Shown one piece after another: positions 2,360 through 3,868 of a DNA stretch of 46,787 nucleotides. This DNA is from an uncultured Candidatus Saccharibacteria bacterium. Lineage in GTDB: Bacteria; Patescibacteriota; Minisyncoccia; Phycocordibacterales; JACOZG01. Made by a program: the position numbers and the translations under genes. Location of the stretch: NCBI GenBank assembly GCA_964444555.1, contig CAYUHC010000004.1, positions 1-46,787 of the forward strand, written 5' to 3'. The notes beneath the pieces were generated by a model. It had not been told where the DNA came from. It did not search any database and saw nothing but the letters and a program-made list of their open reading frames with translations. Numbering within the stretch: position 1 is the first letter of the stretch; every line of letters begins with the position of its first letter.

Positions 2360-2715
2360 GGGTGGCGCCTGGAGCATAAAAGCTAGGCGGGGACTCTGTT
2401 CAAAGGACTTGCCCACTAATGGAGAACGAGCACATAAGTGGGTGGAGAGATAAAGGCGAGAATTAAGCTGGGTGGGATAAAAAAGCTAAATTCTGCTTGG
2501 AAACTCTAAAACACAGAGACGCTATTAAGTTGTATAGGACAAGTCCAGAACGAACGTCCTTAAAGATCAAATCGTACCTGTCCTTGATTATATAAGAGAC
2601 AGCTCTAAAGGACAACAAGCTTCGCTGTGGATAACTTGGCACAAGATTCGGCAAAACGCGACTTTCTCACCACGTTAAAAGATAATCAATTTGAAAATAT
2701 GTTAAAATTTAATTA

Positions 2716-2919
2716 ATGTCCACTTATATTTTATGGTTAGTAGTATTGGGAATTGTCTGTCTGCCATTCTTAGTTAGGATGCAAAAGAAAATAAATAAAA
2801 TTTCGTCAAACCTAAACGATATAAAGGAGGTCCTTAAGAGGATAGAAGCTAGACAACTTAACTCGTCCACCCAAGCTTTTGTTGACGCCATAGAGGGGGT
2901 AGCAAGTGAAGACAACTGA
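2716..2919 (+). CDS. Hypothetical small membrane protein (67 aa)
   Basis: The ORF has one clear N-terminal hydrophobic helix (ILWLVVLGIVCLPFLV) followed by a charged tail. It lies in a very AT-rich patch. I recognise no family, and the antisense ORF of equal size is also open. Confidence 0.35.
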   Translation: MSTYILWLVVLGIVCLPFLVRMQKKINKISSNLNDIKEVLKRIEARQLNSSTQAFVDAIEGVASEDN

Positions 2920-3093
2920 TCCTGTCTTGCTGGGGGGCGTCATTATCGAGGCGTTTTAGAAAGTTTTCCCCAAATTTTTAATCTGCACAGGGAAAAACTG
3001 TTATAATATCAACGAACACTTATAAGACAGTGAAACATTGACAAAAGATCTTGTAAGTGCTAATTAATTACTAGAATTAGAAGCTCACACTTG

Positions 3094-3178
3094 TGCCCCC
3101 GATGAGATTTGAACTCATACATCCTGCACGGATGGTGGTTTTGGAGACCACCGCGTCTACCGATTCCGCCACGGGGGC
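3094..3178 (-). tRNA. Type-II (long variable arm) tRNA with a Leu-like body but anticodon CCA (nominally Trp)
   Basis: The 85-nt reverse complement is GCCCCCG TG GCGGAATCGGTAGACGC G GTGGT CTCCAAA ACCAC CATCCGTGCAGGATGT ATGAG TTCAAAT CTCAT CGGGGGC A. The D arm AATCGGTAGA, the stem-containing variable arm and A73 are Leu-like. The only 7-nt loop I can draw is CTCCAAA, which gives anticodon CCA (plus-strand tgg at 3142-3144). Confidence 0.75.
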
Positions 3179-3200
3179 ATAAGCCTGAGCTCCTAATTTA

Positions 3201-3294
3201 GTTAGAGTAATGGGCTGGATTACCGAAATTACGGATCAAGCCAATGCTTATACCAAAGGCAAGATCATCCGGTAATCCAGCCCATTACTCTAAC
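3201..3294. repeat. Perfect 25-bp inverted repeat with a 44-nt spacer
   Basis: GTTAGAGTAATGGGCTGGATTACCG at 3201-3225 is the exact reverse complement of 3270-3294. The right arm overlaps the stop codon (3290-3292) of the minus-strand ORF 3290-3643. Confidence 0.9.
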
Positions 3295-3643
3295 CTTGAT
3301 TTTCAATCACGCGATAAATGCCGCGAGCGGTCTGCTCGATAGATTTTTTAGTATTTTTTGCGTAGGCGAGCGCGGAGGCAACTTTTTCACGATCAATACC
3401 GTAGCTGGGGTATTGCCTCTGCAAACTCAAAAGAATTTCCTGCGAACCAATACCCTCTACACCAGCCTCTCGCACAATTCGCAAAACTTCAGTACCAATC
3501 GAAAAACCGGCCGGAAGTACCGTCACTTTCTCTGGCTCCAAAAGAGACCGTAACTCGGCCTCCAACTCTTCCTGCCTTTGCAAGATTTGCTTAATCCGCT
3601 CTTTCTTATCCTCGTATCGGGACATGGGCCCATGATAGCACAT
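3290..3643 (-). CDS. Hypothetical protein, N-terminal coiled coil plus a possible winged-helix-like C-terminal half
   Basis: This is a 117-aa ORF. A more likely start is the ATG at 3625 (MSRYEDKK...). I recognise no family. Confidence 0.5.
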   Translation of the reverse strand: MCYHGPMSRYEDKKERIKQILQRQEELEAELRSLLEPEKVTVLPAGFSIGTEVLRIVREAGVEGIGSQEILLSLQRQYPSYGIDREKVASALAYAKNTKKSIEQTARGIYRVIENQG

Positions 3644-3868
3644 TACACTTTCTGTTGCAAATTCGGAGATCTAACTTCCATTTTTTTTATTCCACGTGGC
3701 TATAAATAAGGACATTTTAGGATTCCAATTAGTACAGAATCTTAAAATCAATAGGTAAATTGAAAATACTCAACGCAATAACGGCAATCAACATGACAAA
3801 ACTACCGCCGTGTTGAGCAACATTTTTTCCCTTTGATACGCGTTCGGGCAACGGCAGTGGATAACTGG

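What the first reader, a model, noticed from the sequence alone, without database searches (positions are those of the whole stretch)
3094..3178. Chimeric tRNA: leucine-type body carrying a tryptophan (CCA) anticodon
The 85-nt gene has the hallmarks of bacterial tRNA-Leu. These are the D arm GCGGAATCGGTAGACGC, a long variable arm with its own 5-bp stem (CATCC/GGATG) and discriminator A73. The anticodon stem GTGGT/ACCAC leaves only the loop CTCCAAA, the same loop sequence as in E. coli tRNA-Trp, so the anticodon is CCA. Established knowledge says bacterial LeuRS does not read the anticodon, using A73 and tertiary core features instead. TrpRS relies on CCA and G73. Such a tRNA could therefore be leucylated and insert Leu at UGG, or be dual-identity. 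One substitution (C35 to A, plus-strand g3143 to t) would make it an ordinary tRNA-Leu(CAA). It could thus be a recent missense-suppressor-like mutant, a deliberate mistranslating tRNA, or a base-call error. It lies in the AT-rich accessory patch.
Basis: partly seen in the sequence, partly recalled or inferred. Interest (0 to 1): 0.65.

Follow-up and report, generated by a model that had tools for sequence, protein, structure and literature searches.

The report
Transposon-borne leucine-type tRNA reading tryptophan codon
The odd tRNA is real: an intact leucine-shaped tRNA with a tryptophan anticodon, left in this tiny bacterium's genome by a jumping gene whose relatives carry similar tRNAs with other mismatched anticodons, so it may put the wrong amino acid into proteins.

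Summary
Window 3094-3178 (- strand) is an intact 85-nt class-II tRNA with a leucine-type body, A73 and anticodon CCA. Contigs from two samples show the same sequence.

It is not a point mutant of the resident tRNA-Leu(CAA), and it is not evidence that UGG is reassigned. It lies on a 1,230-bp insertion that the sister species lacks.

The insertion is a transposase-less relic of an IS1595-family element. The cargo is a small winged-helix protein, a rod-like hairpin and a tRNA held in a leader-trailer helix, followed by a convergent promoter.

I read the neighbourhoods of twelve homologues of the cargo protein. Seven have a tRNA at this position, and in all seven the body and anticodon do not match:
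- Leu-type body with UGU (five homologues, with compensatory stem changes)
- Ser-type body with AUC (one)
- class-I body with ACU (one)

Intact copies have terminal inverted repeats. One has an 8-bp target duplication.

The canonical tRNA-Trp is missing from the assembly together with its whole neighbourhood, so this looks like an assembly gap.

The most likely mechanism is inferred, not shown: LeuRS charges the tRNA, and regulated low-level Leu insertion at UGG follows. A test for a "private codon" in the related transposases was inconclusive.

The closest published kinds are allo-tRNAs and tRNA-ProX. I rate this a new variant of a known kind.

The parts
2627..2636 (.). Left copy of the 10-bp direct repeat GTGGATAACT at the edge of the insertion. 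With the two bases before it, it reads TGTGGATAA, a DnaA-box-like word.
   Evidence: the repeat finder D1. Comparison with sister genome G001, which has one copy and no insert.
2637..3866 (.). 1,230-bp insertion absent from the sister species. It lies between the cca gene (CCA-adding enzyme) and a resident tyrosine recombinase gene. The last 10 bp are the right copy of the repeat.
   Evidence: G001 has 317 bp between the two genes and G000 has 1,547 bp. The flanks align base for base.
2716..2919 (+). 67-aa ORF with a hydrophobic N-terminus, inside the insertion but outside the degenerate IS repeats. Function unknown.
   Evidence: the ORF listing and translate. No Pfam match above threshold.
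2986..3002 (.). Degenerate terminal inverted repeat at the tRNA-side end of the relic element.
   Evidence: the repeat finder I2 pairs it with 3819-3835 (17 nt, 88%). It resembles, with an internal deletion, the IR GGGACTTATATACAATGTTACCC of intact relatives; that resemblance was judged by eye.
3038..3066 (+). Convergent promoter-like site, TTGACA-17 nt-TAATTA, pointing antisense into the tRNA. The -10 is degenerate in this copy.
   Evidence: Sequence. The same TTGACA-N16/17-TAnnnT stands at this position in 8 of 8 related cassettes.
3077..3087 (-). 3' trailer strand (UGAGCUUCUAA) of the leader-trailer helix that clamps the tRNA.
   Evidence: Pairs with 3186-3196. Helix 1 is 92.7% paired across 5 cassettes. 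L261 has a 20-bp helix of unrelated sequence at the same place.
3094..3178 (-). The tRNA: class II, Leu-type body, A73, anticodon CCA (C34 = 3145, C35 = 3144, A36 = 3143).
3186..3196 (-). 5' leader strand (UUAGGAGCUCA) of the leader-trailer helix.
3201..3294 (-). Rod-like hairpin with a 25-bp perfect stem and a 44-nt loop, between the small ORF and the tRNA.
   Evidence: the repeat finder I1. Fold -60.5 kcal/mol, z = -10. Equivalent hairpins of unrelated sequence occur in 6 related cassettes, z -5 to -7.8.
3290..3643 (-). Cargo protein 'ORF117' (probably 111 aa, starting at 3625): an N-terminal long helix plus a C-terminal winged-helix domain.
   Evidence: 41 homologues at E <= 0.01, all without a precomputed Pfam domain. 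AlphaFold2 pLDDT 85.6. Foldseek hits to winged-helix domains (MCM, Fur, PadR, BlaI) are weak, E >= 2.7e-3.
3632..3660 (-). Promoter-like site, TTGCAA-17-TATCAT with TG, upstream of ORF117. It is the likely source of an ORF117-hairpin-tRNA transcript.
   Evidence: Consensus scan only.
3819..3835 (.). Degenerate terminal inverted repeat at the ORF-side end of the relic element.
   Evidence: the repeat finder I2.

Best explanation
The gene is a genuine, structurally intact class-II tRNA with a leucine-type body and the tryptophan anticodon CCA. It did not arise in place. It arrived on a 1.23-kb insertion that is a transposase-less relic of an IS1595-family insertion sequence.

Intact relatives of this element occur in other Patescibacteria-like metagenome contigs. 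Between their terminal inverted repeats they carry a DDE transposase and a conserved cargo: a small winged-helix protein, a long rod-like hairpin and, in most cases read, a tRNA clamped in a leader-trailer helix. A strong convergent promoter follows. In every tRNA-bearing case the anticodon does not match the body (Leu-type/UGU, Leu-type/CCA, Ser-type/AUC, class-I/ACU).

Shown here: the gene, the insertion, the cassette family, the IS borders, the covariation, and the standard meaning of UGG in the host's cca gene.

Inferred:
(1) The tRNA is co-transcribed with the small ORF and released by processing of the leader-trailer duplex.
(2) LeuRS charges it, because bacterial LeuRS reads A73 and the tertiary core (A15:U48, placement of G18G19) and not the anticodon. 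TrpRS should charge it poorly, because it lacks the G73 that this lineage's own tRNA-Trp has.
(3) It therefore inserts Leu at some UGG codons.
(4) The winged-helix protein, the clamp helix and the antisense transcript keep this low or conditional.

The copy in this genome is an orphan. Its antisense -10 box is degenerate, so it may be less controlled or already silent.

The confidence given is for the whole statement. The origin (IS-borne cassette with a mismatched tRNA) I hold at about 0.85, and actual Leu insertion at UGG in vivo at about 0.4.
For: Gene and fold. Same sequence in contigs of two samples.

Insertion: the sister genome G001 (CCA-enzyme 96% identical) lacks it, and 10-bp direct repeats flank it.

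Linked ORF: it has no relative in the other 30 genomes of the family but has 41 metagenomic homologues.

tRNA directly downstream on the same strand in 7 of the 12 homologue neighbourhoods read:
- Leu-type/UGU in L239, L240 (same contig family as L241, L242), L243, L251 (same as L252) and L267
- Ser-type with G73/AUC in L261
- class-I/ACU in L244 (same as L245, L246)

IS borders: 25/25 IR in L261, IRs in L251, L239 and L257, and an 8-bp target duplication AAAGTTGT in L239.

Covariation across the 5 Leu-type cassette tRNAs: 90.5% of cells paired, 19 pairs with changes on both sides, 0 of 500 shuffles as high, slid controls 30-43% paired.

Other conserved parts: hairpins with z -5 to -10 and the convergent promoter in 8 of 8 relatives.

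Host machinery: a bacterial-type leuS (cut by a contig end) and trpS are both present.

Identity marks: the relatives' tRNA-Trp is class I with G73. The CUCCAAA loop has the U33 and A37 expected of a decoding tRNA.

Literature: LeuRS, SerRS and AlaRS do not read the anticodon (PMC11028032, PMC11415595).
Against: There are no expression, processing or aminoacylation data. No RNA run holds the stretch.

The G000 copy has no transposase, its IRs are degenerate, and there is no clean 8-bp duplication at the IR borders. No IS1595 transposase is found anywhere in the assembly. It could therefore be a silent relic.

Five of the 12 homologue neighbourhoods have the hairpin but no tRNA. The tRNA is an optional part of the cassette.

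The ACU tRNA of L244 has two mismatches in its anticodon stem.

The cassette is rare. A tRNA with this trailer was found in 1 of 401 class genomes, and no other long-arm CCA tRNA in 401 order genomes.

By overall identity the G000 tRNA is no closer to the cassette UGU tRNAs (59-64%) than to the resident Leu tRNAs (60-65%). Its membership rests on position and flanking motifs.

Leu at Trp codons should be harmful, which argues for tight silencing or for a role outside translation.
Confidence: 0.55

Rival explanations
1. The tRNA-shaped RNA is not used for decoding. It could serve the element in another way. It might be an RNase P/RNase Z processing handle that matures or stabilises the ORF117 transcript. 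It might be the target of the convergent antisense RNA, as a stable toxic RNA paired with a labile antisense RNA in an addiction module. Or it might be a decoy whose anticodon loop copies a host tRNA loop that some protein binds or cuts.
For: The tRNA is always enclosed in a leader-trailer helix that includes the -1:73 pair. A consensus promoter points antisense into it in 8 of 8 relatives. The cassette exists without the tRNA in 5 of 12 neighbourhoods. The anticodon loops equal the host-type loops: CUCCAAA, and UUUGUAA as in G000's own tRNA-Thr(UGU). Mukai et al. suggest that many allo-tRNA(UAU) genes near transposons and toxin-antitoxin loci may not be used for translation (PMC5389517).
Against: The bodies are those of synthetases that ignore the anticodon (Leu, Ser), which a mere processing handle or decoy would not need. 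The whole cloverleaf, including the acceptor stem and T arm, is kept by compensatory changes. U33, A37 and a 7-nt loop are kept.
Confidence: 0.2
2. Private codon dialect. The element's tRNA gives one codon a second meaning that its own transposase gene depends on: ACA read as Leu in the UGU elements, and UGG read as Leu in the ancestor of this copy. Transposase activity would then be tied to expression of the tRNA.
For: In the transposase genes of UGU-bearing elements (L239, L240, L251), ACA codons lie at family columns that are mostly hydrophobic in 6 of 21 cases, against 2 of 44 for ACC, ACG and ACT. I then picked P0045 because it has three Thr at hydrophobic columns. Its contig carries the UGU tRNA, and two of those three codons are ACA.
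Against: The invariant Thr columns (YLLTT) also use ACA, including in L261, which has no UGU tRNA. The hydrophobic columns are mainly Ile/Val, not Leu. Ordinary family members already have 0.6 Thr per 65 hydrophobic columns. Against the fairer control, Thr codons at variable non-hydrophobic columns (8 of 15 are ACA), the excess is not significant by my hand binomial (about 0.19). GAU codons in L261 give no Ser signal. G000 has no transposase to test, and ORF117 has no Trp codon.
Confidence: 0.08
3. The G000 copy is a functionless orphan: a still-intact passenger of a dead element that is not expressed and is on its way to decay.
For: There is no transposase in the insertion or anywhere in the assembly. 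The IRs are degenerate. The antisense -10 box is degenerate. The cassette is unique among 401 order genomes and 401 class genomes.
Against: All tRNA stems are perfectly paired. ORF117 keeps all 7 invariant residues of its family. The hairpin stem is 25/25. A promoter-like site precedes the ORF. This means either a recent arrival or continued selection.
Confidence: 0.12
4. It is this organism's real tRNA-Trp, charged by TrpRS through the CCA anticodon, and it has replaced the canonical gene.
For: No canonical tRNA-Trp is in the assembly. The anticodon loop is identical to a tRNA-Trp loop. trpS is present.
Against: Of the 30 other family genomes, 27 match the tRNA-Trp pattern, and all 22 loci checked with ARAGORN hold a canonical 72-76-nt tRNA-Trp. 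It lies within about 1 kb of tRNA-Tyr and/or tRNA-Arg(CCG) in most of them, and next to rpmG in G001. G000 lacks that whole neighbourhood: clpB C-terminus, rpmG, lexA, tRNA-Tyr, tRNA-Arg(CCG), tRNA-Leu(CAA). This points to an assembly gap. Short contigs about 90-93% identical to G001's rpmG, one of them joined to a tRNA-Trp start, occur at G000-like depth (3.8-5.3) in the same runs. The odd tRNA has A73, while the lineage's tRNA-Trp has G73.
Confidence: 0.04
5. Artefact, or a one-step mutant: a base-call or assembly error, or a recent C35 mutation in the resident tRNA-Leu(CAA). A genome-wide reassignment of UGG to Leu is considered here as well.
For: Formally, a single change (C35 to A) gives CAA. 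Depth is low, about 5x.
Against: Contigs from two samples are identical. The resident Leu(CAA) of the family differs throughout its anticodon, variable and T arms and lies elsewhere in the genome. The tRNAs at the same cassette position in relatives carry UGU, AUC or ACU. In G000's cca gene, the three Trp columns that are invariant across the five sequences aligned (four genera) are all Trp under the standard code. UGG therefore means Trp there.
Confidence: 0.02

Closest known systems
Allo-tRNAs and irregular tRNA polycistrons of soil bacteria (Mukai et al. 2017, Nucleic Acids Res, PMC5389517)
   Same: Ser- or Leu-type long-arm tRNAs with anticodons for many other amino acids. They were found in metagenomes, often beside transposon-related genes or toxin-antitoxin loci, and their role is unclear. 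Some are active in E. coli and some are probably not used in translation.
   Different: Allo-tRNAs are defined by an 8/4 or 9/3 acceptor/T-stem arrangement. This tRNA and its cassette relatives have the canonical 7/5 arrangement. The allo-tRNA passages I read do not describe an IS1595 cargo, the winged-helix ORF, the rod hairpin, the leader-trailer clamp or the convergent promoter. The hosts are also different: Acidobacteria and others, against Patescibacteria here.
tRNA-ProX with ProRSx of Streptomyces and Kitasatospora (reviewed in PMC11415595)
   Same: Naturally encoded bacterial tRNAs whose body identity (Pro) does not match their anticodon (Ala, Asn, Thr). They cause mistranslation when expressed in E. 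coli.
   Different: Those are accompanied by a dedicated synthetase and have A33 and A15-A48. Here no synthetase is linked, U33 and A15/U48 are normal, and the bodies belong to synthetases that ignore the anticodon. This gene is also cargo of an insertion sequence.
Anticodon variants of tRNA-Ser, tRNA-Leu and tRNA-Ala in eukaryotes (human variants; CUG-clade yeasts) (PMC11028032, PMC11415595)
   Same: The same logic applies. Because SerRS, LeuRS and AlaRS do not read the anticodon, an anticodon change gives a mistranslating tRNA.
   Different: Those are point variants of resident genes, or fixed reassignments of one codon. This one is horizontally mobile, sits in a dedicated regulatory cassette, and co-exists with standard decoding.
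IS1595-family insertion sequences with passenger genes (ISfinder subgroups; from my own knowledge)
   Same: DDE transposase with an N-terminal zinc ribbon (PF12760 + PF12762), terminal inverted repeats, an 8-bp target duplication, and extra cargo genes in some subgroups.
   Different: As far as I know, no tRNA cargo has been described for this family. The G000 copy has lost the transposase.

Membership tests
Bacterial tRNA-Leu (class II) | Long variable arm with its own stem, and a 3-bp D stem with Leu-type placement of G18G19 | tested here: met
   Infernal alignment and fold. The D arm GCGGAAUCGGUAGACGC differs by two bases (U17C, C20U) from G000's own tRNA-Leu(UAA) D arm.
Bacterial tRNA-Leu (class II) | Discriminator A73 and an A15:U48 tertiary pair (E. 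coli LeuRS identity set; from my own knowledge) | tested here: met
   A73, A15 and U48 can be read directly in the sequence. They are also kept in the five UGU cassette tRNAs.
Bacterial tRNA-Leu (class II) | A leucine anticodon (NAG or NAA) | tested here: not met
   The anticodon is CCA.
Bacterial tRNA-Leu (class II) | Aminoacylation by LeuRS | not testable with these tools
   A bacterial-type leuS is present but cut by a contig end. There are no biochemical data.
Bacterial tRNA-Trp | Anticodon CCA in a CUCCAAA loop | tested here: met
Bacterial tRNA-Trp | Class-I body with a short variable loop, and G73 | tested here: not met
   The tRNA-Trp genes of the family are 72-76 nt in all 22 loci checked, and the one I read in full (G001) has G73. 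This gene is 85 nt with a long arm and A73.
Bacterial tRNA-Trp | Conserved genomic place (next to rpmG in G001; near tRNA-Tyr and/or tRNA-Arg-CCG in most of this family) | tested here: not met
   It lies in an insertion between the cca and recombinase genes.
Allo-tRNA (Mukai 2017) | 12-bp acceptor branch arranged 8/4 or 9/3 | tested here: not met
   7-bp acceptor stem and 5-bp T stem.
Allo-tRNA (Mukai 2017) | Ser- or Leu-type long arm with a non-cognate anticodon, near mobile or toxin-antitoxin genes | tested here: met
IS1595-family cargo cassette (ORF117, hairpin, clamped tRNA) | ORF117 homologue immediately upstream on the same strand | tested here: met
   P0001 is 50-69% identical to its nearest homologues and keeps all 7 invariant residues of the 39-sequence alignment.
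IS1595-family cargo cassette (ORF117, hairpin, clamped tRNA) | Rod hairpin between the ORF and the tRNA; leader-trailer helix with the UUAGGAnnUCA / UGAnnUUCUAA motif | tested here: met
IS1595-family cargo cassette (ORF117, hairpin, clamped tRNA) | DDE transposase (PF12760/PF12762) within the same terminal inverted repeats, with an 8-bp target duplication | tested here: not met
   G000 has only a degenerate 17-nt IR pair, no transposase, and no 8-bp duplication at those borders. The feature is met in relatives L239, L251 and L261. I therefore file G000 as a relic.
tRNA-ProX / ProRSx type mistranslation pair | Dedicated synthetase gene beside the tRNA; A33 or G33 | tested here: not met
   The neighbours are a winged-helix ORF, a 67-aa ORF and a recombinase. 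U33 is present.

The most novel reading that the evidence does not exclude
The cargo of these IS1595 elements may be a self-contained code-bending module. A stable tRNA, charged by a synthetase that is blind to the anticodon, is aimed at a chosen sense codon (UGG here; ACA, GAU and AGU in relatives). The leader-trailer clamp, a convergent antisense RNA and a winged-helix repressor hold it in check.

The element could use it in one of two ways. It could act as an RNA toxin with an antisense antidote, punishing loss of the element. Or it could give one codon a second meaning that the element's own genes rely on.

Either way, a transposon would be spreading sense-codon mistranslation between tiny symbiotic bacteria.
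Probability: 0.15. Interest if true: 0.9.

Novelty: new variant of a known kind. Interest (0 to 1): 0.68.

Why it matters
Natural tRNAs whose body and anticodon disagree are rare. They are among the few known genetic routes to deliberate mistranslation or to codon reassignment.

Here such a tRNA rides on an insertion sequence together with what looks like its own control gear. Sister elements carry the same design with different anticodons and different anticodon-blind bodies.

If these tRNAs are charged and used, mobile DNA can move sense-codon ambiguity between genomes. That bears on how genetic codes change and on how transposons affect their hosts. It would also supply ready-made missense-suppressor scaffolds for synthetic biology.

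For annotation the practical point is simple. Standard tools call this gene tRNA-Trp (ARAGORN does so here), which would hide both its nature and the fact that the real tRNA-Trp is missing from the assembly.

Tried and rejected
1. Base-call error: rejected. Contigs of two runs agree.

2. Point mutant of the resident Leu(CAA): rejected. The family's Leu(CAA) has different arms and a different locus.

3. UGG reassigned: rejected. The three invariant Trp columns of the cca gene product are Trp in G000 under the standard code.

4. Real loss of the canonical tRNA-Trp: unlikely. The whole rpmG/tRNA-Tyr/tRNA-Trp/lexA neighbourhood is absent from the assembly. rpmG-like contigs at matching depth exist in the same runs, although I could not tie them to this organism.

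5. Collection scans that led nowhere:
- The genome contigs pattern GGYAGACRCNNNNNNCTCCAAA was too loose. None of the 40 hits checked was a tRNA at the match.
- The metagenome pattern for the anticodon arm found only tRNA-Cys and chance hits.
- The viral-contig scan found nothing.

6. Search for other long-arm CCA tRNAs in 401 genomes of the order: matches were at chance level and none was a tRNA. Search for the tRNA plus trailer motif in 401 genomes of the class: only G000.

7. BLAST of the tRNA against relatives: only 27-nt D-arm matches.

8. RNA runs holding the stretch: none.

9. Codon test for a private ACA meaning in related transposases: suggestive but not significant against the proper control.

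10. Chimera made by integrase crossover within a tRNA: rejected. Both halves of every stem match each other.

11. Pfam for ORF117: no significant family.

12. Overall sequence identity does not place the G000 tRNA nearer to the cassette tRNAs than to the host Leu tRNAs.
Full report
**1.

ARAGORN finds five tRNA genes in the window. One lies at 3093-3178 on the minus strand and has anticodon CCA. Rfam's tRNA model scores 3094-3178 (-) at 57.6 bits against a gathering score of 29. It places CUCCAAA in the anticodon loop and a 13-nt insertion in the variable region. The minimum-free-energy fold is the same cloverleaf with an extra variable-arm hairpin.

The RNA reads GCCCCCG UG GCGG AAUCGGUAGA CGC G GUGGU CUCCAAA ACCAC C AUCC GUGCA GGAU G U AUGAG UUCAAAU CUCAU CGGGGGC A. 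It therefore has a 7/5 acceptor/T arrangement, a 3-bp D stem, A15 and U48, U33, A37 and A73.

Logan contigs of two wastewater runs, from two samples of one study, cover the gene without a single difference. The CCA anticodon is not an assembly slip. Depth is only about 5x, and one of the two runs may be the source of the assembly.

**2. The genome, and why the normal tRNA-Trp is missing**

The window is a whole contig of a 534-kb, 17-contig genome estimated to be 95% complete. Earlier notes of this scan place it in the Paceibacteria (Patescibacteria).

Its 34 tRNA genes include Leu CAG, UAA, UAG and GAG. There is no Leu(CAA), no canonical Trp, no Tyr and no Arg(CCG).

Of the 30 other genomes of the family, 27 match the tRNA-Trp pattern. 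All 22 loci I checked with ARAGORN hold a canonical 72-76-nt tRNA-Trp. In most of them it lies within about 1 kb of tRNA-Tyr and/or tRNA-Arg(CCG).

In the sister species G001 the order is clpB - tRNA-Tyr - small ORF - rpmG - tRNA-Trp - lexA. That tRNA-Trp has G73. None of those G001 proteins has any match in G000, so the whole neighbourhood is absent from the assembly.

G001's Leu(CAA) lies about 8.5 kb from its tRNA-Trp on the same contig.

In the same two runs there are short contigs about 90-93% identical to G001's rpmG at depth 3.8-5.3. One of them runs from the end of rpmG into the start of a tRNA-Trp. This is consistent with an unassembled canonical locus, but I could not tie these contigs to this organism.

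A trpS gene above the NCBIfam cut-off is present. So is the C-terminal half of a bacterial-type leuS, cut by a contig end.

In the cca gene (CCA-adding enzyme), the three Trp columns that are invariant across the five sequences aligned (four genera) are Trp in G000 under the standard code. UGG means Trp in this organism.

**3. The gene sits on an insertion**

G001's CCA-adding enzyme is 96% identical to G000's. In G001 317 bp separate the cca gene from a 301-aa tyrosine recombinase gene. In G000 the distance is 1,547 bp.

The flanks align base for base. G000 has 1,230 extra bases bounded by a direct repeat GTGGATAACT (2627-2636 and 3857-3866), of which G001 has one copy.

The insert holds, in window coordinates:
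- a 67-aa ORF (2716-2919, +)
- the tRNA (3094-3178, -)
- a perfect 25-bp inverted repeat (3201-3225 / 3270-3294)
- a 117-aa ORF (3290-3643, -; the called product is 111 aa)

The 117-aa ORF has no relative in any other genome of the family. The resident Leu(CAA) of the family has quite different anticodon, variable and T arms. The odd tRNA is therefore not that gene with one mutation.

**4. The ORF and the tRNA belong to a mobile cassette**

The 117-aa protein has 41 homologues at E <= 0.01 in the large protein collection. None has a precomputed Pfam domain. The few that are named come from Patescibacteria.

I read the neighbourhoods of 11 homologues. I read a twelfth, a more distant ORF117-like protein judged by eye, on L267, reached through the transposase P0045. 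Seven of the 12 have a tRNA a short way downstream on the same strand. In every one the body and the anticodon disagree:
- Leu-type body with A73 and anticodon UGU (loop UUUGUAA or CUUGUAA) in L239, L240 (also L241, L242), L243, L251 (also L252) and L267
- Ser-type body (GGAGGG..., long arm, G73) with anticodon AUC in L261, which belongs to the most remote homologue
- a 72-nt class-I body with anticodon ACU in L244 (also L245, L246), whose anticodon stem has two mismatches

The other five neighbourhoods have no tRNA there.

An IS1595-family transposase (PF12760 + PF12762) lies next to the cassette in L239, L240, L241, L251, L252, L257, L258, L261 and L267. Terminal inverted repeats of the type GGGACTTATATACAATGTTACCC enclose ORF, hairpin, tRNA and transposase together:
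- 25/25 in L261 (2336-4416)
- L251 (3825-6035)
- L239 (267-3606, where the element also carries a DNA methyltransferase)
- a different IR in L257, which has no tRNA

L239 has the 8-bp target duplication AAAGTTGT on both sides. I saw no duplication in L251 or L261.

In G000 a degenerate 17-nt inverted pair (2986-3002 / 3819-3835, 88%) brackets ORF, hairpin and tRNA. There is no transposase in the insert or anywhere in the assembly. The G000 copy is a relic.

**5. Anatomy shared by the cassettes**

(a) Cloverleaf. I aligned the G000 tRNA with four of the UGU tRNAs and their flanks. In the cloverleaf plus flanking helix, 90.5% of cells are paired and 19 pairs have changes on both sides. None of 500 shuffles reaches these values, and the slid controls pair at 30-43%. 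The acceptor stem is 100% paired, with four of its seven pairs changed on both sides. These are selected tRNA shapes, not decaying copies.

(b) Clamp helix. The tRNA is always enclosed in a helix formed by its 5' leader and 3' trailer. In the Leu-type members the strands are UUAGGAnnUCA and UGAnnUUCUAA (92.7% paired). In L261 the helix is about 20 bp of unrelated sequence. The helix runs up to the -1:73 pair.

(c) Rod hairpin. Between ORF and tRNA there is a 93-134-nt rod-like hairpin. Its sequence is not conserved but its fold is. The z-scores are -5.0 to -10.0 in seven cassettes, including the tRNA-less L257.

(d) Convergent promoter. About 26-35 nt beyond the tRNA's 3' end, on the opposite strand, stands TTGACA-N17-TAnnnT (N16 in L257), often preceded by TGC. 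It occurs in 8 of 8 related cassettes and points antisense into the tRNA. G000 has the perfect -35 and the 17-nt spacer, but its -10 is a poor TAATTA.

(e) Sense promoter. A promoter-like site precedes ORF117 in G000.

(f) The protein. ORF117 is predicted with mean pLDDT 85.6 as a long N-terminal helix followed by a winged-helix domain. Its best structural neighbours are winged-helix DNA-binding domains (MCM C-terminus, Fur, PadR, BlaI), with weak E-values from 2.7e-3 upward. I read it as a small DNA-binding regulator. That is an inference.

**6. What the tRNA most likely does**

From established knowledge, bacterial LeuRS and SerRS do not read the anticodon (PMC11028032; PMC11415595). E. coli LeuRS relies on A73 and the tertiary core (my own knowledge). 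The G000 tRNA has these marks. It lacks the G73 of the lineage's tRNA-Trp.

The bodies found in the cassettes are mostly those of anticodon-blind synthetases. The anticodon loops are the proper decoding loops for their codons. UUUGUAA equals the loop of G000's own tRNA-Thr(UGU), and CUCCAAA is the usual tRNA-Trp loop.

The simplest reading is a tRNA that LeuRS charges and that decodes UGG as Leu. The clamp helix, the antisense transcript and the winged-helix protein would keep its activity low or conditional.

None of the steps from transcription onward is shown. No RNA run holds the stretch.

**7. Tests of the bolder readings**

I tested whether the related elements use the tRNA's codon in a special way in their own transposase genes.

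In L239, L240 and L251, ACA codons fall on columns of a 124-sequence transposase alignment that are mostly hydrophobic in 6 of 21 cases. For ACC, ACG and ACT together the figure is 2 of 44.

I then chose P0045 because it has three Thr at hydrophobic columns. Its contig does carry the UGU cassette, and two of the three codons are ACA, the third ACT.

Four things weigh against the idea:
- The invariant Thr columns also use ACA, even in L261, which has no UGU tRNA.
- The hydrophobic columns are mostly Ile/Val, not Leu.
- Ordinary family members average 0.6 Thr per 65 hydrophobic columns.
- ACA is already the commonest Thr codon at variable, non-hydrophobic columns (8 of 15).

Against that last control the excess is not significant (my hand binomial gives about 0.19). 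I leave the 'private codon' idea at about 8%.

The toxin-plus-antisense idea rests only on architecture.

**8. Comparison with what is known**

The closest published kind is the allo-tRNAs and irregular tRNAs of Mukai et al. (PMC5389517). Those are Ser- or Leu-type tRNAs with many non-cognate anticodons, often near transposon or toxin-antitoxin genes. They are defined by 8/4 or 9/3 stems, which this tRNA does not have.

tRNA-ProX with ProRSx (PMC11415595) shares the mismatch but comes with its own synthetase and an abnormal residue at position 33.

My four literature searches found no description of an IS1595 cargo of this design.

After I had worked this out, I found that other agents of this scan had noted IS-borne mismatched tRNAs in other genomes, including a Leu-type/UGU family in Patescibacteria. 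Those are unchecked AI notes. They agree with what I found here but are not independent evidence.

**9. Verdict**

It is wrong on origin, because the gene is neither a point mutant nor an error.

The gene is an orphan member of a mobile cassette family that typically carries tRNAs with mismatched anticodons. I rate it a new variant of a known kind, with interest 0.68. The function is still to be shown.

Noticed in passing
G000 contig C1:26430-26506 (outside the window): The genome has a tRNA-Ile with anticodon UAU. Bacteria usually read AUA with a lysidine-modified CAU tRNA, so this organism may decode AUA without TilS, as Mycoplasma mobile does.
   Followed up: no
G000 assembly as a whole: The clpB - tRNA-Tyr - rpmG - tRNA-Trp - lexA neighbourhood of the sister species is missing, as are tRNA-Arg(CCG), tRNA-Leu(CAA) and several other essential tRNAs (Pro-UGG, Val-UAC, Gly-UCC). 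leuS is cut at the start of contig C10. The '95% complete' genome therefore lacks a tRNA-rich region.
   Followed up: partly
window 2624-2636 and 3854-3866: The insertion site repeat contains a DnaA-box-like word (TGTGGATAA). Similar words (GTGGATAAAT, AGTGGATAGT) lie about 90-110 nt downstream of the cassette tRNA in L244 and L251, and one cassette (L253) sits next to parA-parB. The cassettes may favour origin-proximal sites.
   Followed up: no
L239:3647-3813: A partial RNase P RNA match (class A, 32.5 bits, cut by the contig end) starts about 40 nt beyond the right inverted repeat of the IS. This element has landed next to rnpB.
   Followed up: no
L239:2162-3552; L253/L254; L259/L260; L247/L248: ORF117 homologues are repeatedly found beside DNA methyltransferases or restriction-enzyme genes (N6_N4_Mtase, MvaI_BcnI, RE_EcoO109I, DNA_methylase). 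In L239 the methyltransferase lies inside the IS repeats.
   Followed up: no
L253:4460-4545: Downstream of the tRNA-less ORF117 homologue next to parAB there is a stretch that looks by eye like a decayed tRNA: acceptor-like GCGGGGG...CCUUCGC and a T-arm-like CACGGGUUUGACUCCCGU. Neither ARAGORN nor Infernal calls it.
   Followed up: partly
window 2716-2919 (+): A 67-aa ORF with a hydrophobic N-terminal segment lies inside the 1,230-bp insertion but outside the degenerate IS repeats. It has no family match, so the insertion holds more than the relic cassette.
   Followed up: no
window 3094-3178 (+ strand) and L253, L255: The reverse complement of Leu-type and other tRNAs gives weak matches to Rfam 'Plastid-ycf2 5UTR RNA' (24.9-31 bits, far below its gathering score). 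This is an artefact of that model overlapping the plastid trnL gene.
   Followed up: yes
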